From sequence record OR352947.1: a stretch of DNA of 64,000 nucleotides. The stretch is one strand, 5' to 3'. The translations under genes were made by a program, and so were the position numbers. This DNA is from Escherichia phage AV117. The notes beneath the pieces are model-generated. The model saw nothing but the letters and a program-made list of their open reading frames with translations. It did not search any database and was not told where the DNA came from. Below are positions 1-7,891 of this stretch, in pieces. Each line of letters starts with the position of its first letter. Position 1 is the first letter of the stretch.

Positions 1-342
1 GTGTTGAAGTTTGCAGGCAAAGCATCTGATTTCGGTTTAGAAATAAATTTAGCGACGTTAGGATATGCCTTAAATGCTTCTTCTGCATCAGTACCACCAG
101 AAATCATAAATTTCCAGAAATCTTCAGCATATTCATAAGAGATGCGATTAATACGTGGGTCGGTCATTTTGAATGATGAAGGGGTATCAACAACTACTGT
201 CATAGACCCAATTTCATTACAACGTCCAATACGAGAATCAGTAACGAACTGTGGATTTTCTAAAATTTCACGATTGACAGCTTTAAATGCGGATTGAAAA
301 TCTTCGGCTTTAATATATTTCATTGTGTTATGTTTTCCCATG
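1..342 (-). CDS. hypothetical protein, N-terminal fragment (gene continues past window edge)
   Basis: ATG at 342..340 on minus strand, frame open to position 1 (114 codons, MGKHNTMKYIKAEDF...); only weak DxRxG/VVDTP resemblance to thymidylate-synthase-like dNMP hydroxymethylase N-termini. Confidence 0.4.
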
Positions 343-579
343 TTTACCTCAATACAGTTATTATATACTCAATTCATAAAGCTTATTTGAATTTCTTAGC
401 GATGTTGATATAACGTAGAGCTTCGGCTTAGTATTCCAATTGAACAGGTCCTTTAATCACTTTAGCCGCTTTAGTTTCAAAAAGGCCCTTATGGGCCTTT
501 TTAAGAATTTGTTCGTTGCTGTTAATTTTAATAGTCAAAATCTCTTCGTTAAGTTGGTGGTTAAAAGTTTTTCTAGAAA

Positions 580-1740
580 TCATTCTGGGTACCTCAAAGC
601 GTCATCAGAGTTAGTTATATCAATAATAGATATAGAGTTTTCTGATAACCCATTTTTAGATAACTGACGTTTATAATATCTTTCACAATATGTACACGTC
701 GTCCCACAGATTTCATTAGCACAATCGAAATCTGGATGTTTGAACCACCTTTTTTCTAAAAAGCCGTCTAACAAAGAGGTTTCAATATTTACCGTATGTG
801 AAAACTCAGTCTCATTTTCAAGAGTGAAAATGGTCTCTAAAGGCTTCCACAATTCCAACAAATTACCTTCAAATTTTTCAGAAGCATAAGCTTCAAGAAC
901 TTTCAAAATGTAGTCTGTGCTACCTGTACGTCCTGAAACTTTGAATTGAGTGATACCAATATCATTATAAAGTTTCAAATCTTGAGGACGAACAAAACGA
1001 GTTCTCAACCAGTTAAATGGGTCTGTATCACGAGCTTTAATACAGTGTTGCATTGGATATCCATTTAAGGATTTGGCATCATCTACTGTAACGTCAGTGC
1101 TATGGAAAATATAGCAAGAGTCACGATAGCTACAATGTGTTGTATACCCTTTACCAGCATTAGAACAGAACTCATTTACAAGAACTTCAAATATTATATT
1201 GTTCTTATTACAAAACTCTGCTGCACGTTTCAGGAAAGAAACTGAACGGTTCTTATGAATTCCACAGCAGACCTTTTTGATATTATATTGGTCATGCAAG
1301 TATTTGATTTGAGTTACAGCATCGACATGTAGAATTGTTGAAACTTCAATCTCAATGTCTTTATTGACTTCACGAACAATTTCCATAACAACAGGGTTAG
1401 CGATAGTAATACGCCATACGCCTATTGACCAAAGATACTGAACATAATCCTGAATAGCTTTCTTCTTCCACTCAACTAGTTCTCTTTTTGAACCAGGATT
1501 TATCGTGTTGAGTGTATAGTTAAAGCAAATACCTAATTCGTTACAACGTTTAACGTAATCTTCTAACATCTTTTTGTCAACGTCAGGAAGCCTAAAATCA
1601 GGTCTGGCTGCTACAAAAGCCATTTCTCTTGTAGAGCCGTATACTTCGTTTATCAAGCTATTAGGATAAGTTTTATTGAGCTCTACGATTTTATCAAGAA
1701 GAGCTAAATCAAAATTCGTTCCGATTTTAAAAGTATTCAT
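580..1740 (-). CDS. peptidase U32-family protein (Fe-S, RlhA/TrhP/UbiU-like fold)
   Basis: 386 aa; U32 blocks ITIANPVVMEIVREV...IEVSTILHV, Cys-rich EFCSNAGKGYTTHCSY signature region with four Cys, KVSGRTGSTDY motif. Confidence 0.75.
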   Translation of the reverse strand: MNTFKIGTNFDLALLDKIVELNKTYPNSLINEVYGSTREMAFVAARPDFRLPDVDKKMLEDYVKRCNELGICFNYTLNTINPGSKRELVEWKKKAIQDYVQYLWSIGVWRITIANPVVMEIVREVNKDIEIEVSTILHVDAVTQIKYLHDQYNIKKVCCGIHKNRSVSFLKRAAEFCNKNNIIFEVLVNEFCSNAGKGYTTHCSYRDSCYIFHSTDVTVDDAKSLNGYPMQHCIKARDTDPFNWLRTRFVRPQDLKLYNDIGITQFKVSGRTGSTDYILKVLEAYASEKFEGNLLELWKPLETIFTLENETEFSHTVNIETSLLDGFLEKRWFKHPDFDCANEICGTTCTYCERYYKRQLSKNGLSENSISIIDITNSDDALRYPE

Positions 1741-1800
1741 TTTTTTTTTTGCATCCCACGTTAATTGATGCGATGGTTTTTGCAGGTCTTACTTAAATTA

Positions 1801-2202
1801 TTATAGATTCGGTTTATATGATTTAAATGTTTCGAATTCGCCTTTATTCATAAGAGCTTTGAATTCGTCAGGACGCATAGCTTTGTCGTCGATAATCCAA
1901 TCATATACTGGTTTATGTGTTAGCAAATTATGGTACTTCAATCCAATGTTTGCCAAGTTCTGAATCAGACTTGGGAGAATGTCAATTGCTATACGACCAG
2001 GACCGACTGACTTCATACCGCGAGCAGTGTAAAGCGTTATGGTATGCCCTGCATCATACAGGGCATTAATGGCAGACACCATTTCGACGTCTGGTTTGAA
2101 GTTCACGTAATCACGATTGTTATTCCACTCTGTTATACAATCATCGACATCAAAACAAAGATTAAGCATGTTTTCTACACGGTGCATTAGATTCGTTCCC
2201 AT
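1801..2202 (-). CDS. HAD-superfamily phosphatase (small, KdsC-like)
   Basis: 133 aa; HAD motif I LCFDVDDCIT near N-terminus and C-terminal WIIDDK acidic motif; start overlaps 3' end of upstream kinase/NTase gene. Confidence 0.6.
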   Translation of the reverse strand: MGTNLMHRVENMLNLCFDVDDCITEWNNNRDYVNFKPDVEMVSAINALYDAGHTITLYTARGMKSVGPGRIAIDILPSLIQNLANIGLKYHNLLTHKPVYDWIIDDKAMRPDEFKALMNKGEFETFKSYKPNL

Positions 2203-3872
2203 TGATGAGTGATATCGCCACCGATTGGACGATAAGAAACACCGGTTTCTTTATCAGTTAGTACCCATTTACCAGGATTTTTTGTAATCAGAGTAGCCGT
2301 TACAGGTTCTGCTACGTCATAACTAATAGAGCCGTCCTGAAGTACACGGCCCATGTTACGTAATTGCTTAGTCAGAAGTTCCATACCTTTATAATATGCG
2401 GCTACCGCTTTAAGTGGATTATTCTTGAAATAACCACCTAATGCAATCCAGATAATTGCCGCTGCCAAATGATGATACTCGTTAAACGAACTCATCTTTC
2501 CATATTTGTAAACTAATGGATTGATGTTAATAGACACATTACAAGTTGTTTCATCGATAGTAAACTGTCCCCAGGTCGGATTAGCATTGAATTCATCATA
2601 ACCTGAAACAGCGTAAAGCACTTTAGCTTCATCATACAATTTTGGGCCGTAAATCTTGGTTTCGCCAAAATATCCACGAGGGTCGATAAACTTGACTTCG
2701 CCGTTATCAGTAATCATAGTATTACTGAAGTTCGGGTCACCATGAATAACAGAGTACTGTCCCTGAGAACGGTTATGATAACGAATAAGGTGTTCTAAAG
2801 CTTGTTTCAGCATTGGTTTCAGACGCCCAATCTTAGTGTAGTTCACATGTGTGATTTTACCAAATGAATCAATCAATGGTTGAATACTTTCACAACGATC
2901 AATGACTTTAGTATAGAATTCTTTAGTGAAATCACGACGAACAGTTTCAGGACTTACAAAATAAGTGTCTGTGCTGAATTTCAGTGCGTCTAAAATTGCA
3001 TCAACAATTTGTGGACGAGCAAGACTCGATTTGGATTTAATATATTCAAATGCTGGCTTACCTTTAATGCGTTCCATTTCAAAGTTATTTTCATTAACAG
3101 AAACTAACTGAGGAACTGAATCTGATTTCACTTTAAGATACCATGAAATCTCATCTTTCTGAAGAGCTCGACCCTGTTCGGTTAATGCGAATTTAGTTAC
3201 AGTTTCTTCACCAATTTCAACTGCATTAAAACTACGATTAAGTTCACGAACTTCATGAGCTTTTTCAAGTTTAGGCATATCACCTAAATCAATTAGATTC
3301 ATAAGCTCTGATTTATTGAATGCGCTGCCGTAAAGGAATTCTACGAAATCGCGTCCTTTGCAGTATTCATGAATTTCCTCATCAGTAGAACCCATATAGA
3401 ATTCCCAGTCTTTGAACTGATAAATTCCTACAACATTACCACCTGTTGAACCTACGTTAGTGATATTTTCACCGTCGAAATTATATCGACATTCGTCACC
3501 CTTAACATAGATTGCGTTAACATTCCAAGACCATGAACCAAAATCAGGAATAATATCACACCAGTTAACAATTACATTATGGCCGTCTAAATCTTTGTGC
3601 AATTTAGCAAGAGCATAAGCAGAACCATACGCTTCATCAACTGTACGAATAGTCACATTGAACCCTTCTTGCTCACAATAAGCTCGAACAGTTTCAGCAA
3701 ATTTTGAATGAACTACTACAATAATTTCATCTGCGCCAAGGTCAGAATAAATTGTATACAAATTGCTCAGAATAGTGTCTTGTTTATAATTAACAAGCAC
3801 CTTAGGAATATGATGCGTTATTGGATACAAACGAGTTGCCAGTCCAGCACCAAGAATAACAGCTTTTTTCAT
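2187..3872 (-). CDS. bifunctional sugar nucleotidyltransferase / sugar 1-kinase (NDP-sugar synthesis)
   Basis: 561 aa; N-terminal MKKAVILGAGLATRLYPIT is the GxGxR NTP-transferase signature (RmlA/GlmU-like); C-terminal HGDPNFSN and DPRGYFG resemble the catalytic loop of APH/choline-kinase-like kinases. Confidence 0.75.
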   Translation of the reverse strand: MKKAVILGAGLATRLYPITHHIPKVLVNYKQDTILSNLYTIYSDLGADEIIVVVHSKFAETVRAYCEQEGFNVTIRTVDEAYGSAYALAKLHKDLDGHNVIVNWCDIIPDFGSWSWNVNAIYVKGDECRYNFDGENITNVGSTGGNVVGIYQFKDWEFYMGSTDEEIHEYCKGRDFVEFLYGSAFNKSELMNLIDLGDMPKLEKAHEVRELNRSFNAVEIGEETVTKFALTEQGRALQKDEISWYLKVKSDSVPQLVSVNENNFEMERIKGKPAFEYIKSKSSLARPQIVDAILDALKFSTDTYFVSPETVRRDFTKEFYTKVIDRCESIQPLIDSFGKITHVNYTKIGRLKPMLKQALEHLIRYHNRSQGQYSVIHGDPNFSNTMITDNGEVKFIDPRGYFGETKIYGPKLYDEAKVLYAVSGYDEFNANPTWGQFTIDETTCNVSININPLVYKYGKMSSFNEYHHLAAAIIWIALGGYFKNNPLKAVAAYYKGMELLTKQLRNMGRVLQDGSISYDVAEPVTATLITKNPGKWVLTDKETGVSYRPIGGDITHQWERI

Positions 3873-3913
3873 GTTGTGGTCCTCATTGGTAAGTAGGAGT
3901 ATTGTACACTATT

Positions 3914-4057
3914 CTAGTTAAAGCATTCATACTTTGCTTGTAGTCCAATCATAATCCATCCGATTATAAGAGTCGGAACCATTACTGGAGCCGTTAAGCT
4001 CCAGTAGATAGTCATGACAAGCATCAATAGTAAAAGTCCTATTGTTATTGCTTTCAT
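3914..4057 (-). CDS. small hydrophobic membrane peptide (47 aa)
   Basis: ATG overlaps stop of upstream SIS gene (ATGA); MKAITIGLLLLMLVMTIYWSLTAPVMVPTLIIGWIMIGLQAKYECFN, two hydrophobic segments; below ORF-track size cutoff. Confidence 0.4.
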   Translation of the reverse strand: MKAITIGLLLLMLVMTIYWSLTAPVMVPTLIIGWIMIGLQAKYECFN

Positions 4058-4689
4058 TGTTCGCCTCGTAACATGGCACCTAGTGCACCGCCAGGGTGGA
4101 ACTTAAGGAAGTCATTAGAGGTAAATCCACGCTCAGACGAAAGGTTGATAGCAAACGTATCGATAAGCGCTAACAACAATGTAGTGGACATAGTCGGAGC
4201 CAGAGAATTCTCATCAACCTCTACTGCGATGCCTGTACAGAAAGAGTAATCAAAAAGGGCTTCATTTTCTTGTGGAATGTCTGGGTTACAATGCAACAGA
4301 ATCTGTTTGACGTTAGGACGAATCATTTTAAGATGCTTAGCCACGCCTATCATTTCTTCAGTTTTACCAGAACGACTAATATGAATCAACACATCATTAG
4401 GCGCAATGAATCCTGCATCACCGTGAGAATAATGCCCAGTGTTCAAGTACATACTCGGGATACCGAGTGAAGCAAATGTCTCAGAAGCTTTAGTTGCAAT
4501 ATTAGCATTCTTACCAACACCCGTAATAATTACTCGGCTTTCATAATTACTAAGTCCAGGGCGTCGAAGAGTTTCTAGAATAGCATTATAACGAGCAGGG
4601 TTTTGACTAATTACTTTGGCCATAGCGGCCAAAGAAGAAGCTTGTTTTATGATTGCGTCAATAGCGATAGTAATAGGAGTAGTTTTCAT
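4054..4689 (-). CDS. SIS-domain D-arabinose-5-phosphate isomerase (KdsD/KpsF-type, no CBS domains)
   Basis: 211 aa; ITGVGKNANIATK and LIHISRSGKTEE SIS motifs; C-terminal APTMSTT...RGFTSNDF...HPGGALG matches KdsD SIS domain. Confidence 0.8.
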   Translation of the reverse strand: MKTTPITIAIDAIIKQASSLAAMAKVISQNPARYNAILETLRRPGLSNYESRVIITGVGKNANIATKASETFASLGIPSMYLNTGHYSHGDAGFIAPNDVLIHISRSGKTEEMIGVAKHLKMIRPNVKQILLHCNPDIPQENEALFDYSFCTGIAVEVDENSLAPTMSTTLLLALIDTFAINLSSERGFTSNDFLKFHPGGALGAMLRGEQ

Positions 4690-4729
4690 ATTTCTCTCAT
4701 TTAATTAGTTTACCGTCCATGACATTATA

Positions 4730-7441
4730 TCAAAAATCGAACATATCGAACAGAGATGCTTTCTTCTCGTAATCGAGTTTCGCTGCTGATGTGAATCCTT
4801 CAAGTGGTTTAATAAATGTCTTCTCAAGGAGAACAGTGTAGTCCATCCAATGAAGTACGTCGTCTTTAATTAAATCTGTGATTTCAGTACCAGAAGGCCA
4901 TGCGATACATTTATCACCGAATGGGTTTCCTTCACGTAAAGGCAGAACATATACTTTTTCACCTTCTACAACTTGCGGTGCATCGATATTACCTTTGATA
5001 GCCCGGTTATACGTCAGAATTCCACGAATATGGAATGGACATTTAGGACCAGGGAATCCACCTACATCATATTTAGCAATGTTATTCGCAGAAGATACCG
5101 ACGCGATGCTAATATAATTCAATTGACGGAATTCTTTTTCAAACTCTTTAAAATATTCTTGTAATGATTCTTCACCTTCTTGAAGCATACGACGAATACA
5201 TTCTTTAAGAGCTTTCTGTACTGCTTTAGGAGTCGAAGATTTCTGAGTCTCTAGACCCATGATTTTGAGTTTAGGCTCAGCGTAACGAGTACCTTCCATA
5301 TCCCACACGTTTAATGCATAACGTTTCTTACCAGTCCAGAATCCGCCAATACCTTTAGAACCAAGCGGAGGCCCAGCGATAGCTTCTCGGTCCATGAACA
5401 TTAAGTGTTGTTTATTGTTCATGTATTCACACATTTCACGGAAACCTCTATCAATAGCTGGTTCCATACGTTCACGTGCAAACTTATCTAAGAAGTCTAC
5501 CCAATGGTTGGTATCACGGAATTTAGATTCACCAACCTTATCGATAATTTTATCAGCAGATACGTAAATAGAGTCTGTATCACCGTAAAGAACGAAAGCT
5601 TCACCTTCTGTGCCACAAACTTCATTCAGATATTCATTAACTTTACGTTCAATCCACTGTAAAGCCATTTGACCAAATGTTGTGATTGCAGTAGCATTAC
5701 GCAAATCATAATAACGGAACCAAACGTTTCCAAGTGCACCATAAAGTGAGTTGATAAGCAATTTACGGTTAATTTGGGCAGTCATACCTGCAACTTCAGT
5801 ACGTTGAGCTCTAAACAACATTTCATTAAGAGATTTAGCAGACAACTTTTTAATCTTTTCTTTAATCTCATCACTGAAGTCGAAACGATAATCAACATCT
5901 AATGGTTCGTCAACAGAAAGATTAGGATTATGCAATGCCTCTTTAATTATTTCACCATTACGTTGAGCTGCAAGCATGTAACCTTTATGTTCTTTACGTT
6001 GATTAAAGACCTTAGTGATTTCGGTTGGAACTACACCGTCACGGTCTTTATAATACATCATGCCGTTAGGAGAACAACTGTACACATCAGAAGGACGCTC
6101 AGCGATTGCGTTAATATAATCATGCAGTGGAGCTACTTTAAACGTTCCTGCTATTGTTTCTGGGCTAATATTCACTTGGCGAATAATACTTGGATACAGA
6201 GATGTAAGGTCGAAACTCATTACATATTTGTATCGATTTGGAATAGGTTCCTTAACAAAAGCGCCAGGATAAGGTTGAACCGGGTGAGAACGACCTTGTG
6301 GAATCACCTTGTTCTGCTCTTTAAGGCTATTAAAAATAATAGCATCCCATGTTTTAATTGGACTAAACACAGATTGAATCTGTATCTTAGCATAATAACC
6401 CATGTCCAAGCTCAAGTTAATGAACTGACGTTTACCATCAATTTGCAATACACGATACACGTCGATAATGTTATAAGAAATATATCGTTGGTGATTGCTT
6501 TCACGAAGCTTAGAAATAGGGCCGTCATATTTCAGTTTACCAACGTTCAATTCAAATTCTGAAATGTAATCCAGAGAATATGATGGTTGATTGGTAAAAG
6601 AGAATTTTTTGTAAAGGTCAATGTAATCAAGAACAGAGATACCGAACAATGTAATGATTTCACGAGAACCATACATGTTTTCGATAACTTTAACACGAGT
6701 TTTACGATGTGGTGACAACCGTTTTGCTGTGGATTCGCCAAAAATATTCTTGATTCGGTTATACACATATGGAATATCAAATGACTCAACGTTCCATCCA
6801 GTCAAAATGACAGGAGTTTTCTGTTGCCAGAAGTTGAGATATTCCATCAACAATTCTTTTTCGTTATCGAACGGCATATAAATGATTTTATCGATAATTT
6901 CGGATGGAACTTCATCACCACCTTGTTCTTGAAGCTTAGCCGCAATTTCGATAGACCATTCTTCTACATTACCATATGGAGAATTCAATAGATCAAATAC
7001 GTAGAACCTGTCGTCAATTGAGTCATAATGGGTGATAGCATCAATCGGATGTTTTGCTTGTGACGGCTCAGGGAACCCGTCCGGAGATGTTACTTCGATG
7101 TCGAAGTTAGCCACACGAATTTTTGTATGGTCGTATTTGATTTCATAGTTATAAGTGTCAGACAAATACGCTAATTTGAAATCGTCCATGCCAAGTGCTT
7201 CAAGTCCGATATCTTCCATGCGTTTAATCCATTGGGAGGCATCACGCATATTGGCGAACAACTTACGAGTACACGGCTTACCGTAGATATCGAAATATTT
7301 CGTAGCCTGACTTTCTGGACAATGAGCAAACAGTGATGGTTTATATTCTACTTCACGAGTACGTTCACGGCCATTAGAATCGATGTAACGTTCAAAAATT
7401 GAATCACCAATCTGTTCAACCGTTAAGTAAAATTCTTTCAT
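4730..7441 (-). CDS. 43: DNA polymerase gp43 (family B with 3'-5' exonuclease)
   Basis: 903 aa; exo motifs FDIEV and YNIIDV, pol motifs DLTSLYPSII, KLLINSLYGALG, YGDTDS; sequence reads as RB69-type gp43. Confidence 0.97.
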   Translation of the reverse strand: MKEFYLTVEQIGDSIFERYIDSNGRERTREVEYKPSLFAHCPESQATKYFDIYGKPCTRKLFANMRDASQWIKRMEDIGLEALGMDDFKLAYLSDTYNYEIKYDHTKIRVANFDIEVTSPDGFPEPSQAKHPIDAITHYDSIDDRFYVFDLLNSPYGNVEEWSIEIAAKLQEQGGDEVPSEIIDKIIYMPFDNEKELLMEYLNFWQQKTPVILTGWNVESFDIPYVYNRIKNIFGESTAKRLSPHRKTRVKVIENMYGSREIITLFGISVLDYIDLYKKFSFTNQPSYSLDYISEFELNVGKLKYDGPISKLRESNHQRYISYNIIDVYRVLQIDGKRQFINLSLDMGYYAKIQIQSVFSPIKTWDAIIFNSLKEQNKVIPQGRSHPVQPYPGAFVKEPIPNRYKYVMSFDLTSLYPSIIRQVNISPETIAGTFKVAPLHDYINAIAERPSDVYSCSPNGMMYYKDRDGVVPTEITKVFNQRKEHKGYMLAAQRNGEIIKEALHNPNLSVDEPLDVDYRFDFSDEIKEKIKKLSAKSLNEMLFRAQRTEVAGMTAQINRKLLINSLYGALGNVWFRYYDLRNATAITTFGQMALQWIERKVNEYLNEVCGTEGEAFVLYGDTDSIYVSADKIIDKVGESKFRDTNHWVDFLDKFARERMEPAIDRGFREMCEYMNNKQHLMFMDREAIAGPPLGSKGIGGFWTGKKRYALNVWDMEGTRYAEPKLKIMGLETQKSSTPKAVQKALKECIRRMLQEGEESLQEYFKEFEKEFRQLNYISIASVSSANNIAKYDVGGFPGPKCPFHIRGILTYNRAIKGNIDAPQVVEGEKVYVLPLREGNPFGDKCIAWPSGTEITDLIKDDVLHWMDYTVLLEKTFIKPLEGFTSAAKLDYEKKASLFDMFDF

Positions 7442-7453
7442 TTAATTTCCTTT

Positions 7454-7469
7454 AGACGAGTTATTGTCT
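7454..7469 (-). promoter_or_regulatory. putative gene 43 translational operator hairpin
   Basis: mRNA AGAC-AAUAACUC-GUCU hairpin immediately upstream of the AAAGGAAA Shine-Dalgarno of gene 43; loop matches the T4 gene 43 operator loop as recalled. Confidence 0.5.
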
Positions 7470-7488
7470 TTTGTTTGTTGATGAACTT

Positions 7489-7518
7489 ATTATACTCCAA
7501 ATGGGACCGAAGTCCCAT
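7489..7518 (-). promoter_or_regulatory. intercistronic GGGAC-UUCG-GUCCC stem-loop followed by TATAAT
   Basis: minus-strand AUGGGAC-UUCG-GUCCCAU hairpin (7501..7518) then TATAAT (7489..7494) between regA and gene 43. Confidence 0.45.
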
Positions 7519-7522
7519 TGCT

Positions 7523-7891
7523 TTAATTACCAATTGTATATTTTGCTTTCAAAGTCCAGTCATCTTTCTGTTTAAAAGAGATAACACGGAAGTTATTAGT
7601 CAAGCCAAACAGATCTTCACGAGCAGAGTCTTCAATAACAATCAATCCCCAGTCTTCAAGCAACTGAGCAATCGAATCACGTCGCTGATAGTCTTCACCG
7701 TCAATATCAACCAGACGTCCGTCCATACGCAGCATTTCTTTAAAGTGGACGATGTAATATTTACCTTGCTTTTGGAGGATATGACAAGACTGGTAAAGGA
7801 CTTTATCCTTGTTATTAGCGATGCCCATACGGGTCAAAGTCTCTTTGACTTTCAGAAAATCTTCAGGGTTCTTCAATTTAATTTCAATCAT
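7523..7891 (-). CDS. regA: translational repressor RegA
   Basis: 122 aa from MIEIKLKNPEDFLKVKETLTRMGIANNKDKVLYQSCHIL, matching T4 RegA; position between 62 and 43. Confidence 0.9.
   Translation of the reverse strand: MIEIKLKNPEDFLKVKETLTRMGIANNKDKVLYQSCHILQKQGKYYIVHFKEMLRMDGRLVDIDGEDYQRRDSIAQLLEDWGLIVIEDSAREDLFGLTNNFRVISFKQKDDWTLKAKYTIGN

What the first reader, a model, noticed from the sequence alone, without database searches (positions are those of the whole stretch)
1801..4689. Sugar-activation module (isomerase, phosphatase, kinase/nucleotidyltransferase) replaces imm downstream of gene 43: candidate DNA arabinosylation donor pathway
Three adjacent genes give a chemically complete route from ribulose-5-P to an NDP-arabinose: a KdsD-type SIS arabinose-5-phosphate isomerase (4054..4689), a small HAD phosphatase (1801..2202) and a fused sugar-1-kinase/NTP-transferase (2187..3872). 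T4 has imm at this locus. T-even relatives such as RB69 are reported to carry arabinosyl-hmC instead of glucosyl-hmC. No glycosyltransferase is recognisable inside the window, so the transfer step is not accounted for here.
Basis: partly seen in the sequence, partly recalled or inferred. Interest (0 to 1): 0.9.

Follow-up and report, generated by a model that had tools for sequence, protein, structure and literature searches.

The report
Phage UDP-arabinose pathway for DNA modification
These three genes are the already-published pathway by which RB69-type phages make the activated arabinose sugar that they attach to cytosines in their DNA; the finding is real but known, while the conserved gene next door may be an unrecognised oxygen-independent way to make the modified base.

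Summary
On the minus strand downstream of gene 43 lie a SIS isomerase (4054-4689), a 561-aa protein with an N-terminal sugar-1-phosphate nucleotidyltransferase and a C-terminal kinase (2187-3872), and a small HAD phosphatase (1801-2187; the ORF runs to 2202). The window is an RB69-group Mosigvirus. Its proteins are 97-100% identical to RB69 gp55, gp52:53 and gp51 and to phage HY126. The HAD is identical to PDB 9IQW.

Two corrections apply:
- The modified base is arabinosyl-5-hydroxycytosine, not arabinosyl-hmC.
- The reported order is isomerase, kinase (arabinose-1,5-bisphosphate), phosphatase, then uridylyltransferase.

Both known arabinosyltransferases lie outside the window.

A lead beside the finding: the adjacent U32-family gene (580-1740) is more conserved than the DNA polymerase and keeps the Fe-S cysteines of the U32 hydroxylases RlhA, TrhP and UbiU. 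In 51 related phage records a chorismate mutase gene sits in this cluster, directly after the U32 gene wherever inspected. It may be an oxygen-independent, prephenate-dependent cytosine 5-hydroxylase. That is untested, and I could not read two key papers.

The parts
4054..4689 (-). Single-domain SIS arabinose-5-phosphate isomerase (ortholog of RB69 gp55): ribulose-5-P to arabinose-5-P
   Evidence: Pfam SIS 41.9 bits. NCBIfam KpsF/GutQ 112.9 bits and KdsD 107.7 bits, both below the full-length cut-offs. PDB 3ETN E 2.6e-25, 5UQI, 2XHZ. 36% identical to E. coli KdsD, with K59, H88, E152 and H193 equivalents conserved and E111 replaced by K. 99-100% identical to HY126 and RB69.
3914..4057 (-). 47-aa hydrophobic ORF, start overlapping the SIS stop (ATGA); function unknown
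   Evidence: Matches an unannotated ORF in the T4 gap between genes 42 and imm (57% identity over 30 aa, E 6e-11). No Pfam or NCBIfam hit.
3258..3872 (-). N-terminal domain (about aa 1-205) of the bifunctional enzyme: sugar-1-phosphate nucleotidyltransferase, arabinofuranose-1-P + UTP to UDP-arabinofuranose
   Evidence: Pfam NTP_transferase 39.1 bits. G8-A-G-L-A-T-R14 motif; G10, R14 and K24 invariant in 38 homologs. Foldseek hits to RmlA, MurU, HddC and LicC. Domain limits taken from the model's secondary structure.
2352..3227 (-). C-terminal kinase domain (about aa 216-507) of the same protein: APH/protein-kinase-like fold, reported to phosphorylate arabinose-5-P at C1
   Evidence: Sub-threshold Pfam hits to APH, fructosamine kinase and EcKL. 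H377-G-D-x4-N384 and D397 are invariant. Foldseek hit to APH(2'')-IIa 3HAM. The activity is as reported for HY126 AfhE in PMC13326640.
2187..3872 (-). Whole bifunctional gene (561 aa), ortholog of RB69 ORF53_52c and HY126 AfhE
   Evidence: 99.8% identical to HX01 and 97.0% to HY126. Split in the RB69 GenBank record by a sequencing error. Model pLDDT 93.4.
1801..2187 (-). Small HAD phosphatase (128 aa from the likely start), ortholog of RB69 gp51 and HY126 AfhF: removes the 5-phosphate from arabinose-1,5-bisphosphate
   Evidence: Identical to PDB 9IQW over residues 5-133 of the long ORF. NCBIfam TIGR01689 capsule phosphatase 49.3 bits, below cut-off. D13-V-D15 motif I. TAATG overlap with the upstream gene.
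580..1740 (-). U32-family Fe-S protein (RB69 gp50), same gene string; proposed here as a prephenate-dependent, O2-independent pyrimidine C5 hydroxylase (inferred)
   Evidence: Pfam Peptidase_U32 42.4 bits. 80-87% identical across distant phages. Invariant Cys set. Closest E. coli paralog is RlhA. Fold match to 5D88. Chorismate mutase lies directly after the U32 gene in 4 inspected loci and in this cluster in 51 phage records.
428..583 (-). 51-aa ORF overlapping the U32 stop (ATGA); shortened relative to RB69 gp49 (79 aa); function unknown
   Evidence: 39-nt deletion relative to RB69, and a different frameshift in HY126. No family hit. No similarity to the phage chorismate mutases.
1..341 (-). 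N-terminal 113 aa of the thymidylate-synthase-like 5-hydroxy-dCMP synthase (RB69 gp48), cut by the window edge
   Evidence: 112 of 114 residues identical to PDB 9IQC/9IR2. Function shown for RB69 gp48 in PMC13326640.

Best explanation
The three genes encode the phage's own supply line for UDP-D-arabinofuranose, the sugar donor used to arabinosylate 5-hydroxycytosine in the phage DNA.

1. The SIS protein converts the host pentose-phosphate intermediate ribulose-5-phosphate into arabinose-5-phosphate. This step is inferred from homology and conserved catalytic residues.
2. The C-terminal kinase domain of the 561-aa protein phosphorylates C1 to give arabinofuranose-1,5-bisphosphate. This is reported for the 97%-identical HY126 AfhE.
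3. The small HAD phosphatase removes the 5-phosphate to give arabinofuranose-1-phosphate. This is reported for HY126 AfhF, whose structure 9IQW has the same sequence as the window's protein.
4. The N-terminal nucleotidyltransferase domain couples the product to UTP to give UDP-arabinofuranose (reported for AfhE).
5. Two GT-B transferases encoded outside the window (orthologs of RB69 gp46:47 and gp3) then add one or two arabinoses to 5-hydroxycytosine. That base is made as 5-hydroxy-dCMP by the thymidylate-synthase-like enzyme whose gene is cut by the window's left edge.

The logic mirrors the bacterial ADP-heptose pathway: isomerase, bifunctional kinase/nucleotidyltransferase, bisphosphate phosphatase.
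For: - Orthology and synteny: the region is 97.6-98.5% identical to RB69 and HX01. Proteins are 97-100% identical to RB69 and HY126.
- Literature: Thomas 2018 proposed ORF055c and ORF53_52c for UDP-arabinose synthesis. Lee 2026 assigns gp51, gp52:53 and gp55 to the route from Ru5P to NDP-Araf and summarises the HY126 AfhE/AfhF biochemistry. UDP-Araf was the active donor for DLP3 transferases in vitro.
- Solved structures: 9IQW matches the HAD, and 9IQC/9IR2 match the neighbouring hydroxylase.
- Own tests: KdsD residues K59, H88, E152 and H193 are conserved. Nucleotidyltransferase and kinase motifs are invariant in 38 homologs. The model has pLDDT 93.4 with RmlA/MurU and APH(2'') fold matches.
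- Gene fusion: proteins of 900-955 aa with the order HAD, SIS, NTP-transferase, kinase.
- Distribution: the module is present in 373 phage records.
- Overlapping stop and start codons within the gene string.
Against: - No enzymology could be done here, and I could not read He 2026 or Mahler 2025 directly. The step order rests on Lee 2026's summary. Their Table 1 still lists the older order, with the phosphatase acting first.
- The SIS scores below NCBIfam's full-length KpsF and KdsD cut-offs, lacks CBS domains and has K in place of KdsD E111.
- The kinase and HAD score below curated family cut-offs.
- IME08, Thanatos-2 and PhiKpNIH-6 gave no tblastn match to the SIS in the fetched stretch of about 19 kb around the module. 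The isomerase may therefore not be obligatory there.
- The DNA of this particular phage has not been analysed.
Confidence: 0.9

Rival explanations
1. Same enzymes but in the order the first reader implied. The HAD first dephosphorylates arabinose-5-P to free arabinose, the kinase then acts as an anomeric sugar-1-kinase on free arabinose, and the nucleotidyltransferase finishes.
For: Lee 2026's Table 1 lists exactly these roles ('dephosphorylates Araf5p to Ara', 'phosphorylates Ara to Araf1p'). APH-fold anomeric sugar kinases such as AmgK and NahK act on free sugars (my own knowledge of those families).
Against: The text of the same paper, updated with He 2026, says AfhE phosphorylates Araf5P to the 1,5-bisphosphate and AfhF then removes one phosphate. 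The bisphosphate route matches the ADP-heptose pathway (established knowledge) and avoids releasing a free sugar.
Confidence: 0.07
2. The module makes an activated sugar for something other than DNA, for example to alter host capsule, LPS or Kdo supply, and is only coincidentally near the DNA-modification genes.
For: The best family names are capsule-related: KpsF, and the EcbF-BcbF capsule phosphatase. 9IQW is deposited as 'Capsule biosynthesis protein'.
Against: In every phage locus examined that carries the module, it lies next to the 5-hydroxy-dCMP synthase and a transferase gene or RB69 gp47 homolog, close to the DNA polymerase gene. RB69 and relatives carry arabinose on their DNA. NDP-arabinose is not a known enterobacterial metabolite.
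Confidence: 0.02
3. The nucleotide carrier or the sugar differs in this phage, for example a CDP- or GDP-pentose or UDP-xylose, so the product is not UDP-arabinofuranose.
For: Fold matches include cytidylyl-, guanylyl- and thymidylyltransferases alongside MurU. The Thanatos paper reports UDP-xylose pyrophosphorylase activity for one of that phage's enzymes.
Against: The window's enzyme is 97% identical to HY126 AfhE, reported as a UDP-D-arabinose pyrophosphorylase. UDP-Araf is the donor that worked in vitro on RB69 DNA.
Confidence: 0.03

Closest known systems
RB69 gp55 / gp52:53 / gp51 and HY126 AfhE / AfhF (phage arabinosyl-5-hydroxycytosine pathway; Thomas 2018, Lee 2026, He 2026, Mahler 2025)
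   Same: Orthologs in the same order and place, 97-100% identical. The HAD has the same sequence as PDB 9IQW.
   Different: Nothing substantive. The window is a different isolate, closest to HX01 at 98.5% DNA identity. It has a shorter small ORF at 428-583 and a longer A-run before the U32 gene.
Bacterial ADP-heptose pathway (GmhA isomerase, HldE kinase/adenylyltransferase, GmhB bisphosphate phosphatase)
   Same: The same four-step logic: ketose-phosphate isomerase, C1 kinase giving a bisphosphate, phosphatase removing the distal phosphate, then nucleotidyl transfer. Kinase and transferase are fused in one protein. GmhA is a SIS protein and GmhB a HAD protein, as here (established knowledge of that pathway; steps as).
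   Different: HldE's kinase is ribokinase-like and its transferase cytidylyltransferase-like (my knowledge, not tested here). Here the kinase has the APH/protein-kinase-like fold and the transferase is RmlA/MurU-like. The domain order is reversed, the sugar is a pentose and the carrier is UDP. This is an analogue, not a family member.
AmgK-MurU (MurNAc anomeric kinase plus MurNAc-1-P uridylyltransferase) of Pseudomonas
   Same: An APH-fold sugar kinase paired with a minimal RmlA-like uridylyltransferase. MurU structures (4Y7T, 4Y7U, 4Y7V) are among the best fold matches.
   Different: AmgK and MurU are separate proteins that act on a free amino sugar and need no phosphatase step (my knowledge).
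KdsD/GutQ/KpsF arabinose-5-phosphate isomerases, especially the single-domain Bacteroides fragilis enzyme (PDB 3ETN)
   Same: SIS fold, 36% identity to KdsD, and four of five catalytic residues conserved. The best PDB match is 3ETN.
   Different: No CBS domain pair. K replaces KdsD E111, and 3ETN also has K at the aligned position. The product feeds a nucleotide-sugar pathway rather than Kdo synthesis.
T4 hmC glucosylation (gene 42, alpha-gt, beta-gt)
   Same: The same genomic neighbourhood (43 to uvsX) and the same strategy: a thymidylate-synthase-like enzyme modifies dCMP and the sugar is added afterwards.
   Different: T4 uses host UDP-glucose and needs no donor pathway. T4's base is hmC, whereas here it is 5-hydroxycytosine. 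T4 has imm.1 and imm where this phage has the SIS gene.
U32-family hydroxylation factors RlhA, TrhP, UbiU/UbiV (for the neighbouring gene 580-1740)
   Same: Pfam U32 above threshold. The Glu and Cys residues shown to be essential in TrhP and RlhA have conserved equivalents, and there is a C-terminal Cys cluster as in RlhA. The best profile match among E. coli paralogs is RlhA. Prephenate-pathway genes are adjacent in relatives.
   Different: Only about 18-19% identical to the E. coli paralogs. Only about 204 profile columns align with the first 260 residues of the 653-residue RlhA, so RlhA's large extra region has no counterpart. The presumed substrate would be dCMP or DNA, not RNA or a quinone. 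No activity has been shown.

Membership tests
Phage arabinosyl-5-hydroxycytosine donor module (RB69 gp51, gp52:53, gp55; HY126 AfhE, AfhF) | Orthologous proteins in conserved order between gene 43 and the thymidylate-synthase-like gene | tested here: met
   97-100% protein identity to RB69, HX01 and HY126 with the same gene order.
Phage arabinosyl-5-hydroxycytosine donor module (RB69 gp51, gp52:53, gp55; HY126 AfhE, AfhF) | Adjacent 5-hydroxy-dCMP synthase (thymidylate synthase homolog) | tested here: met
   Window 1-341 (minus strand) encodes the N-terminal 113 aa, with 112 of 114 residues identical to PDB 9IQC. The diagnostic D169N position lies outside the window.
Phage arabinosyl-5-hydroxycytosine donor module (RB69 gp51, gp52:53, gp55; HY126 AfhE, AfhF) | Conversion of arabinose-5-P to UDP-arabinofuranose by the kinase/transferase and the phosphatase | not testable with these tools
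   Reported for HY126 AfhE and AfhF by He 2026, as summarised in PMC13326640. I could not read the primary paper.
Phage arabinosyl-5-hydroxycytosine donor module (RB69 gp51, gp52:53, gp55; HY126 AfhE, AfhF) | Virion DNA carries mono- and di-arabosyl, that is arabinosyl, 5-hydroxycytosine | not testable with these tools
   Shown for RB69 and the Mosigvirus NP, not for the phage in this window.
KdsD/GutQ/KpsF arabinose-5-phosphate isomerase | SIS domain | tested here: met
   Pfam PF01380, 41.9 bits against a 25-bit cut-off.
KdsD/GutQ/KpsF arabinose-5-phosphate isomerase | Score above NCBIfam's curated cut-off for KpsF/GutQ or KdsD | tested here: not met
   TIGR00393 112.9 bits against 203.7; KdsD NF008141 107.7 bits against 505. 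The match covers only the SIS half of those models.
KdsD/GutQ/KpsF arabinose-5-phosphate isomerase | Catalytic residues of E. coli KdsD (K59, H88, E111, E152, H193; residue list from my knowledge of the KdsD literature) | tested here: met
   K59, H88, E152 and H193 align with identical residues. E111 aligns with K, and 3ETN also has K there.
KdsD/GutQ/KpsF arabinose-5-phosphate isomerase | C-terminal tandem CBS domains | tested here: not met
   The protein ends at residue 211, directly after the HPGGALG motif. It is a single-domain type like 3ETN.
Sugar-1-phosphate nucleotidyltransferase (Pfam NTP_transferase; RmlA/MurU type) | Family score above cut-off, G-x-G-x-x-T-R signature, and RmlA-like fold | tested here: met
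   39.1 bits against 21.2. G8AGLATR14 present, with G10, R14 and K24 invariant. Foldseek probability 1.00 to RmlA, MurU, HddC and LicC.
APH / protein-kinase-like small-molecule kinases | Pfam APH score above cut-off | tested here: not met
   PF01636 14.4 bits against 23.2. Related families are also sub-threshold. Some homologs do carry PF01636 in the precomputed annotation.
APH / protein-kinase-like small-molecule kinases | Catalytic loop H-x-D-x4-N, downstream Mg-binding Asp, and the bilobal fold | tested here: met
   H377GDPNFSN384 and D397 are present and invariant. Foldseek match to APH(2'')-IIa 3HAM, E 1.6e-7.
HAD-superfamily phosphatase | Motif I D-x-D and a family match | tested here: met
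   D13-V-D15 present. TIGR01689 49.3 bits, below the 162-bit subfamily cut-off. PDB 1XPJ E 5e-10, and identity to 9IQW. No Pfam hit.
ADP-heptose pathway enzymes (GmhA, HldE, GmhB) | Family-level match to GmhA, HldE or GmhB | tested here: not met
   No NCBIfam hit to GmhA, HldE or GmhB for any of the three proteins. The kinase and transferase folds found here are APH-like and RmlA-like. The resemblance is in pathway logic only.
U32 prephenate-dependent hydroxylases (RlhA, TrhP, UbiU/V), for gene 580-1740 | Peptidase_U32 motif with the essential Glu and Cys residues | tested here: met
   PF01136 42.4 bits against 22.4. E185, C192, C203 and C209 align with the E/C/C residues essential in TrhP and RlhA. 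C192, C203, C209 and C233 are invariant in 34 family members.
U32 prephenate-dependent hydroxylases (RlhA, TrhP, UbiU/V), for gene 580-1740 | Functional link to prephenate | tested here: inconclusive
   A chorismate mutase above the Pfam cut-off lies directly after, or two small ORFs after, the U32 gene in Entb_45, PhiKpNIH-6, Thanatos-2 and phiP4-3, and in this cluster in 51 records overall. A DAHP synthase follows a metagenomic homolog. The window itself has no chorismate mutase.
U32 prephenate-dependent hydroxylases (RlhA, TrhP, UbiU/V), for gene 580-1740 | Hydroxylation activity independent of O2 | not testable with these tools
Direct activity has not been shown in vitro even for RlhA and TrhP.

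The most novel reading that the evidence does not exclude
The gene next to the finding (580-1740, RB69 gp50) may be a virus-encoded Fe-S hydroxylase of the U32 family. It would use prephenate rather than O2 as the oxygen donor to make 5-hydroxycytosine, as 5-hydroxy-dCMP or on DNA. That would let these phages build arabinosylated DNA in the anoxic gut, where the O2- and flavin-dependent thymidylate-synthase-like hydroxylase cannot work.

This parallels the paired aerobic and anaerobic routes TrhO/TrhP and UbiIHF/UbiUV. Related phages carry their own chorismate mutase beside the U32 gene to supply prephenate.

The accessible literature calls gp50 only a 'sugar or heterocycle reductase' or a 'putative enzyme involved in UDP-arabinose biosynthesis'. 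I could not check He 2026 or Mahler 2025.
Probability: 0.35. Interest if true: 0.75.

Novelty: already known. Interest (0 to 1): 0.2.

Why it matters
The sugar-donor module explains how RB69-type phages obtain a nucleotide sugar that their enterobacterial hosts are not known to make. It underlies a DNA hypermodification that blocks many restriction enzymes and shapes sensitivity to defence systems. That is already established, so this finding adds another isolate and some independent support: the gene-fusion evidence and the residue checks.

The more useful outcome is the lead on the neighbouring U32 gene. If it is an oxygen-independent cytosine hydroxylase, it would be the first DNA-directed member of the prephenate-dependent hydroxylase family. 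It would also be a small, soluble, highly conserved enzyme on which to test the still unreconstituted U32 chemistry. And it would explain how an O2-requiring DNA modification can be maintained by phages of gut bacteria.

Tried and rejected
- **Promoter and terminator scan of 1-7600:** counts were no better than shuffled sequence (28 against 27.1, and 4 against 3.7), so no operon boundaries are claimed from it.
- **Small ORF 428-583 as a decayed chorismate mutase:** rejected. Neither it nor the intact 79-aa RB69 gp49 hits CM_2, and a profile of four phage chorismate mutases shows no similarity to gp49 (probability 0.04%).
- **Sequence search of the PDB with the U32 protein:** no hit. Only the fold search found 5D88.
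- **Profile comparison of the phage U32 family with UbiU and TrhP:** weak (E 0.0088 and 0.0045). Only RlhA gave a usable match (84.6%, E 6.8e-6). These used single-sequence templates, so 'closest to RlhA' is tentative.
- **Search for imm, imm.1, beta-gt, gp46:47 and ORF003c in the window:** nothing better than E = 0.1.
- **'U32 is present in all phages of facultative anaerobes':** rejected as a strict rule. The E. coli Dhakavirus IME08 has the sugar and hydroxylase genes but no U32 in the fetched region.
- **Primary papers:** attempts to read He 2026 and Mahler 2025 failed because they are not held.

Full report
**What the window is.** The 7.5 kb at the left end of the window matches 154 phage records at 95-99% identity. 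The best is Escherichia phage HX01 (98.5%), and RB69 matches at 97.6%. The neighbouring 903-aa ORF corresponds to the gene annotated as gp43 DNA polymerase in RB69. The window therefore comes from an RB69-group T-even phage (genus Mosigvirus).

**The observation.** All three ORFs are present on the minus strand as described.
- ORF 4054-4689 (211 aa) carries a SIS domain above Pfam's cut-off. It is most similar to the KpsF/GutQ/KdsD arabinose-5-phosphate isomerases.
- ORF 2187-3872 (561 aa) has an N-terminal NTP_transferase domain above cut-off. Weak matches to APH, fructosamine kinase, EcKL and RIO kinases fall at residues 308-409.
- ORF 1801-2202 gives only sub-threshold HAD-family hits, the best being the 'capsule biosynthesis phosphatase' subfamily.
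- The HAD's true start is probably the ATG at 2187, which overlaps the upstream stop codon as TAATG. The RB69 and HY126 annotations (387 nt) and the crystallised construct all begin there.
- The SIS stop overlaps the start of a 47-aa hydrophobic ORF as ATGA.
- T4 has imm.1 and imm between genes 43 and 42, so the positional remark is right.
- A tblastn of both published RB69 arabinosyltransferases, T4 beta-gt, imm and imm.1 against the whole window found nothing better than E = 0.1. In RB69 and HX01 the first transferase lies just beyond the gene that the window's left edge cuts.

**What is already published.**
- Thomas et al. 2018 found arabinose in RB69 DNA. They showed that ORF053c and ORF052c are one 561-aa gene split by a sequencing error, and they proposed that it and ORF055c make UDP-arabinose.
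- Lee et al. 2026 revised the chemistry. RB69 DNA contains mono- and di-arabinosylated 5-hydroxycytosine, with the sugar joined directly to C5 through an ether oxygen. The 5-hydroxy-dCMP is made by the thymidylate-synthase homolog gp48.
- Lee et al. assign gp55, gp52:53 and gp51 to the route from ribulose-5-phosphate to NDP-arabinofuranose.
- Citing He et al. 2026, they state that HY126 AfhE is both an arabinose-5-phosphate kinase and a UDP-arabinose pyrophosphorylase. They state that AfhF is the Mg-dependent phosphatase that trims the 1,5-bisphosphate.
- UDP-arabinofuranose was the donor that worked in vitro on RB69 DNA.
- An independent 2026 study of the Mosigvirus NP reports the same modification and states that the earlier 'hydroxymethyl' assignment for RB69 was erroneous.

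**How close the window is to the studied proteins.** A local tblastn gave the following identities.

| Protein | HY126 | RB69 |
|---|---|---|
| SIS | 99.1% | 100% |
| Bifunctional enzyme | 97.0% | 99.1% over the first reading frame of the split record |
| HAD | 100% | 99.2% |

The HAD is identical over residues 5-133 to PDB 9IQW. The truncated gene at the left edge matches PDB 9IQC/9IR2 at 112 of 114 residues. The published biochemistry therefore transfers directly.

**Independent checks.**
- Aligned with E. coli KdsD (36% identity), the SIS protein keeps the equivalents of K59, H88, E152 and H193. It has K in place of E111 and stops before the CBS domains. Its best solved relative is the single-domain Bacteroides enzyme 3ETN, which has K at the same aligned position.
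- In an alignment of 38 homologs down to 29% identity, the invariant residues include G10, R14 and K24 of the nucleotidyltransferase signature. They also include H377, G378, D379, N384 and D397 of a kinase catalytic loop and metal site.
- The AlphaFold model is confident (pLDDT 93.4). Its N-terminal domain matches RmlA, MurU, HddC and LicC, and its C-terminal domain matches APH(2'')-IIa. This agrees with Lee et al.'s Table 1.
- The homolog search found proteins of 900-955 aa from metagenomes and one eukaryotic transcriptome. In these, HAD, SIS, NTP-transferase and kinase domains follow one another in a single chain. This gene-fusion evidence supports one pathway. Their HAD belongs to a different HAD subfamily from the phage's.
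- The bifunctional gene occurs in 373 phage records across many host genera.

**Mechanism and caveats.** The most likely mechanism is the published one:
1. Ru5P to A5P (SIS; inferred).
2. A5P to arabinofuranose-1,5-bisphosphate (kinase domain; reported).
3. Removal of the 5-phosphate (HAD; reported).
4. Uridylyl transfer to give UDP-arabinofuranose (N-terminal domain; reported).
5. Transfer to 5-hydroxycytosine by enzymes encoded outside the window.

The logic is that of the ADP-heptose pathway (GmhA, HldE, GmhB). The kinase and transferase folds found here are APH-like and RmlA-like, so it is an analogue and not a member.

Caveats:
- I could not read He 2026 or Mahler 2025.
- Lee et al.'s table still shows the alternative order with the phosphatase first.
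- IME08, Thanatos-2 and PhiKpNIH-6 gave no match to the SIS gene in the stretches fetched. E. coli has its own KdsD, so hosts may supply arabinose-5-phosphate and the isomerase may only boost supply (inference).
- IME08 keeps imm next to gene 43 together with the module, so the module does not have to displace imm.
- The 47-aa ORF between the SIS gene and the bifunctional gene matches an unannotated ORF in T4's gap between genes 42 and imm (E 6e-11). This suggests that the SIS gene sits in the imm.1/imm slot and the remaining genes were inserted between that small ORF and the gene-42 homolog.

**The neighbouring U32 gene: conservation and family features.** The 386-aa ORF at 580-1740 (RB69 gp50) scores above Pfam's cut-off for Peptidase_U32.
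- It is strikingly conserved. All 221 phage records with a match are at least 80% identical.
- Across Enterobacter, Shewanella, Klebsiella and Proteus phages it is 80-87% identical. The DNA polymerase is 65-79% identical in the same phages and the bifunctional enzyme 44-71%.
- U32 is the family of RlhA, TrhP and UbiU/UbiV. RlhA is required for 5-hydroxycytidine 2501 in 23S rRNA. TrhP is required for O2-independent 5-hydroxyuridine in tRNA. UbiU/UbiV carry out O2-independent ubiquinone hydroxylation.
- All of these depend on Fe-S clusters and prephenate, and prephenate has been shown to be the oxygen donor for UbiU/V.
- The phage protein keeps equivalents of the Glu and two Cys residues shown to be essential in TrhP and RlhA (E185, C192, C203/C209). 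It also has a further invariant Cys (C233) and an invariant C-terminal C-x4-C-x3-C-x2-C cluster.
- Among the E. coli paralogs its profile matches RlhA best (probability 84.6%, E 6.8e-6, 204 columns). TrhP and UbiU match only weakly.
- Its model (pLDDT 91.1) matches the U32 structure 5D88.

**The neighbouring U32 gene: genomic context.**
- In Entb_45, PhiKpNIH-6 and Thanatos-2 the gene directly after the U32 gene is a type II chorismate mutase above Pfam's cut-off. In Proteus phiP4-3 two small ORFs intervene.
- 51 phage records carry this chorismate mutase in the same cluster. Its invariant residues have the spacing I recall for the E. coli chorismate mutase catalytic residues (the comparison is from memory).
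- In Thanatos-2 the U32 and mutase genes sit together at a different place in the cluster, which suggests they move as a pair.
- More distant homologs (46-58% identity) lie on phage-like metagenomic contigs among nucleotide-metabolism genes. One overlaps a dCMP deaminase gene, and another is separated from one by a short gap. One is followed by a Bacillus-type DAHP synthase, the first shikimate-pathway enzyme. One sits among NT5C, deoxynucleoside kinase and a second U32 gene.
- Acinetobacter is not among the organism names listed for U32-carrying phages, although 57 Acinetobacter phage records carry the sugar module. The DLP1 locus has no U32 match. Acinetobacter is a strict aerobe (my knowledge).

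**The U32 proposal.** I propose that gp50 is an O2-independent, prephenate-dependent route to 5-hydroxycytosine that backs up the O2- and flavin-dependent gp48.

Evidence against:
- The window, RB69 and HY126 have no recognisable chorismate mutase. The small ORF in that position is variably truncated and unrelated to the mutases.
- IME08 infects E. coli yet lacks a U32 gene in the fetched region.
- gp48 with a nucleotide kinase suffices aerobically.
- There is no biochemistry for gp50.

In the held literature no paper links U32 proteins with these phage modifications. Lee et al. mention the two RNA hydroxylation pathways only to say that they do not use homologs of the synthase. They label gp50 a 'sugar or heterocycle reductase'.

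**Verdict.** The finding is real and its interpretation essentially correct, but it is already known in detail, so it scores low on novelty and interest. The U32 lead is the part that may be new. I give it about one chance in three.

Noticed in passing
window 580-1740 (minus strand): A U32-family Fe-S protein (RB69 gp50) in the same gene string is more conserved across distant phages (80-87%) than the DNA polymerase (65-79%). It keeps the essential Glu/Cys motif of RlhA and TrhP. A chorismate mutase lies beside it in relatives (51 records carry one in this cluster). It is a possible O2-independent cytosine 5-hydroxylase.
   Followed up: yes
window 428-583 (minus strand); RB69 L001:3384-3623; HY126 L005:7158-7280: The small ORF overlapping the U32 stop differs among near-identical phages: 79 aa in RB69, 51 aa here (39-nt deletion creating a stop) and 40 aa in HY126 (one extra T). 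It has no family hit and no similarity to the chorismate mutases that occupy this position in other genera. It looks like a gene in decay.
   Followed up: yes
window 1741-1751 (minus strand, immediately 5' of the U32 ATG): The homopolymer A run between the likely ribosome-binding site and the U32 start codon varies in length among close relatives: 11 here, 8 in HX01, 6 in RB69 and 5 in HY126. It might tune translation of the U32 gene.
   Followed up: partly
window 3914-4057 (minus strand); T4 L002:4231-4320: A 47-aa hydrophobic ORF whose start overlaps the SIS stop is conserved with an unannotated ORF in T4's gap between genes 42 and imm (57% identity over 30 aa, E 6e-11). This is a likely small membrane protein missing from the T4 annotation.
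   Followed up: partly
P0204, P0208, P0209, P0211, P0212, P0215, P0229 (homologs of window 2187-3872): Proteins of 900-955 aa from metagenomes, and one from a eukaryotic transcriptome set, carry HAD, SIS, NTP-transferase and kinase domains in one chain (order checked for P0204, P0209, P0211 and P0212). The same pathway may therefore exist as a single polypeptide outside phages. Their organisms and the fate of the sugar are unknown.
   Followed up: partly
L014-L018 (metagenomic contigs up to 466 kb carrying U32 homologs): The gp50-like U32 subfamily is widespread on large phage-like contigs next to dCMP deaminase, UDG, DNA polymerase III alpha, NT5C, deoxynucleoside kinase and, once, a DAHP synthase. 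This hints at other hydroxylated pyrimidines in uncultured viruses.
   Followed up: partly
HX01 NC_018855 (L003) and other RefSeq records matching window 1-7500: RefSeq product names look misleading when set against Lee 2026's assignments for the RB69 orthologs. The HAD phosphatase is named 'phosphoheptose isomerase', the ortholog of the first arabinosyltransferase 'RNA polymerase binding protein', the U32 protein 'peptidase', and the 5-hydroxy-dCMP synthase 'thymidylate synthase'.
   Followed up: no
IME08 L010, Thanatos-2 L006, PhiKpNIH-6 L007: In the stretches fetched, these phages carry the kinase/transferase, HAD, hydroxylase homolog and transferase-position genes but gave no match to the SIS isomerase. 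IME08 also keeps imm beside gene 43. The isomerase therefore appears optional, and the module does not have to displace imm.
   Followed up: partly
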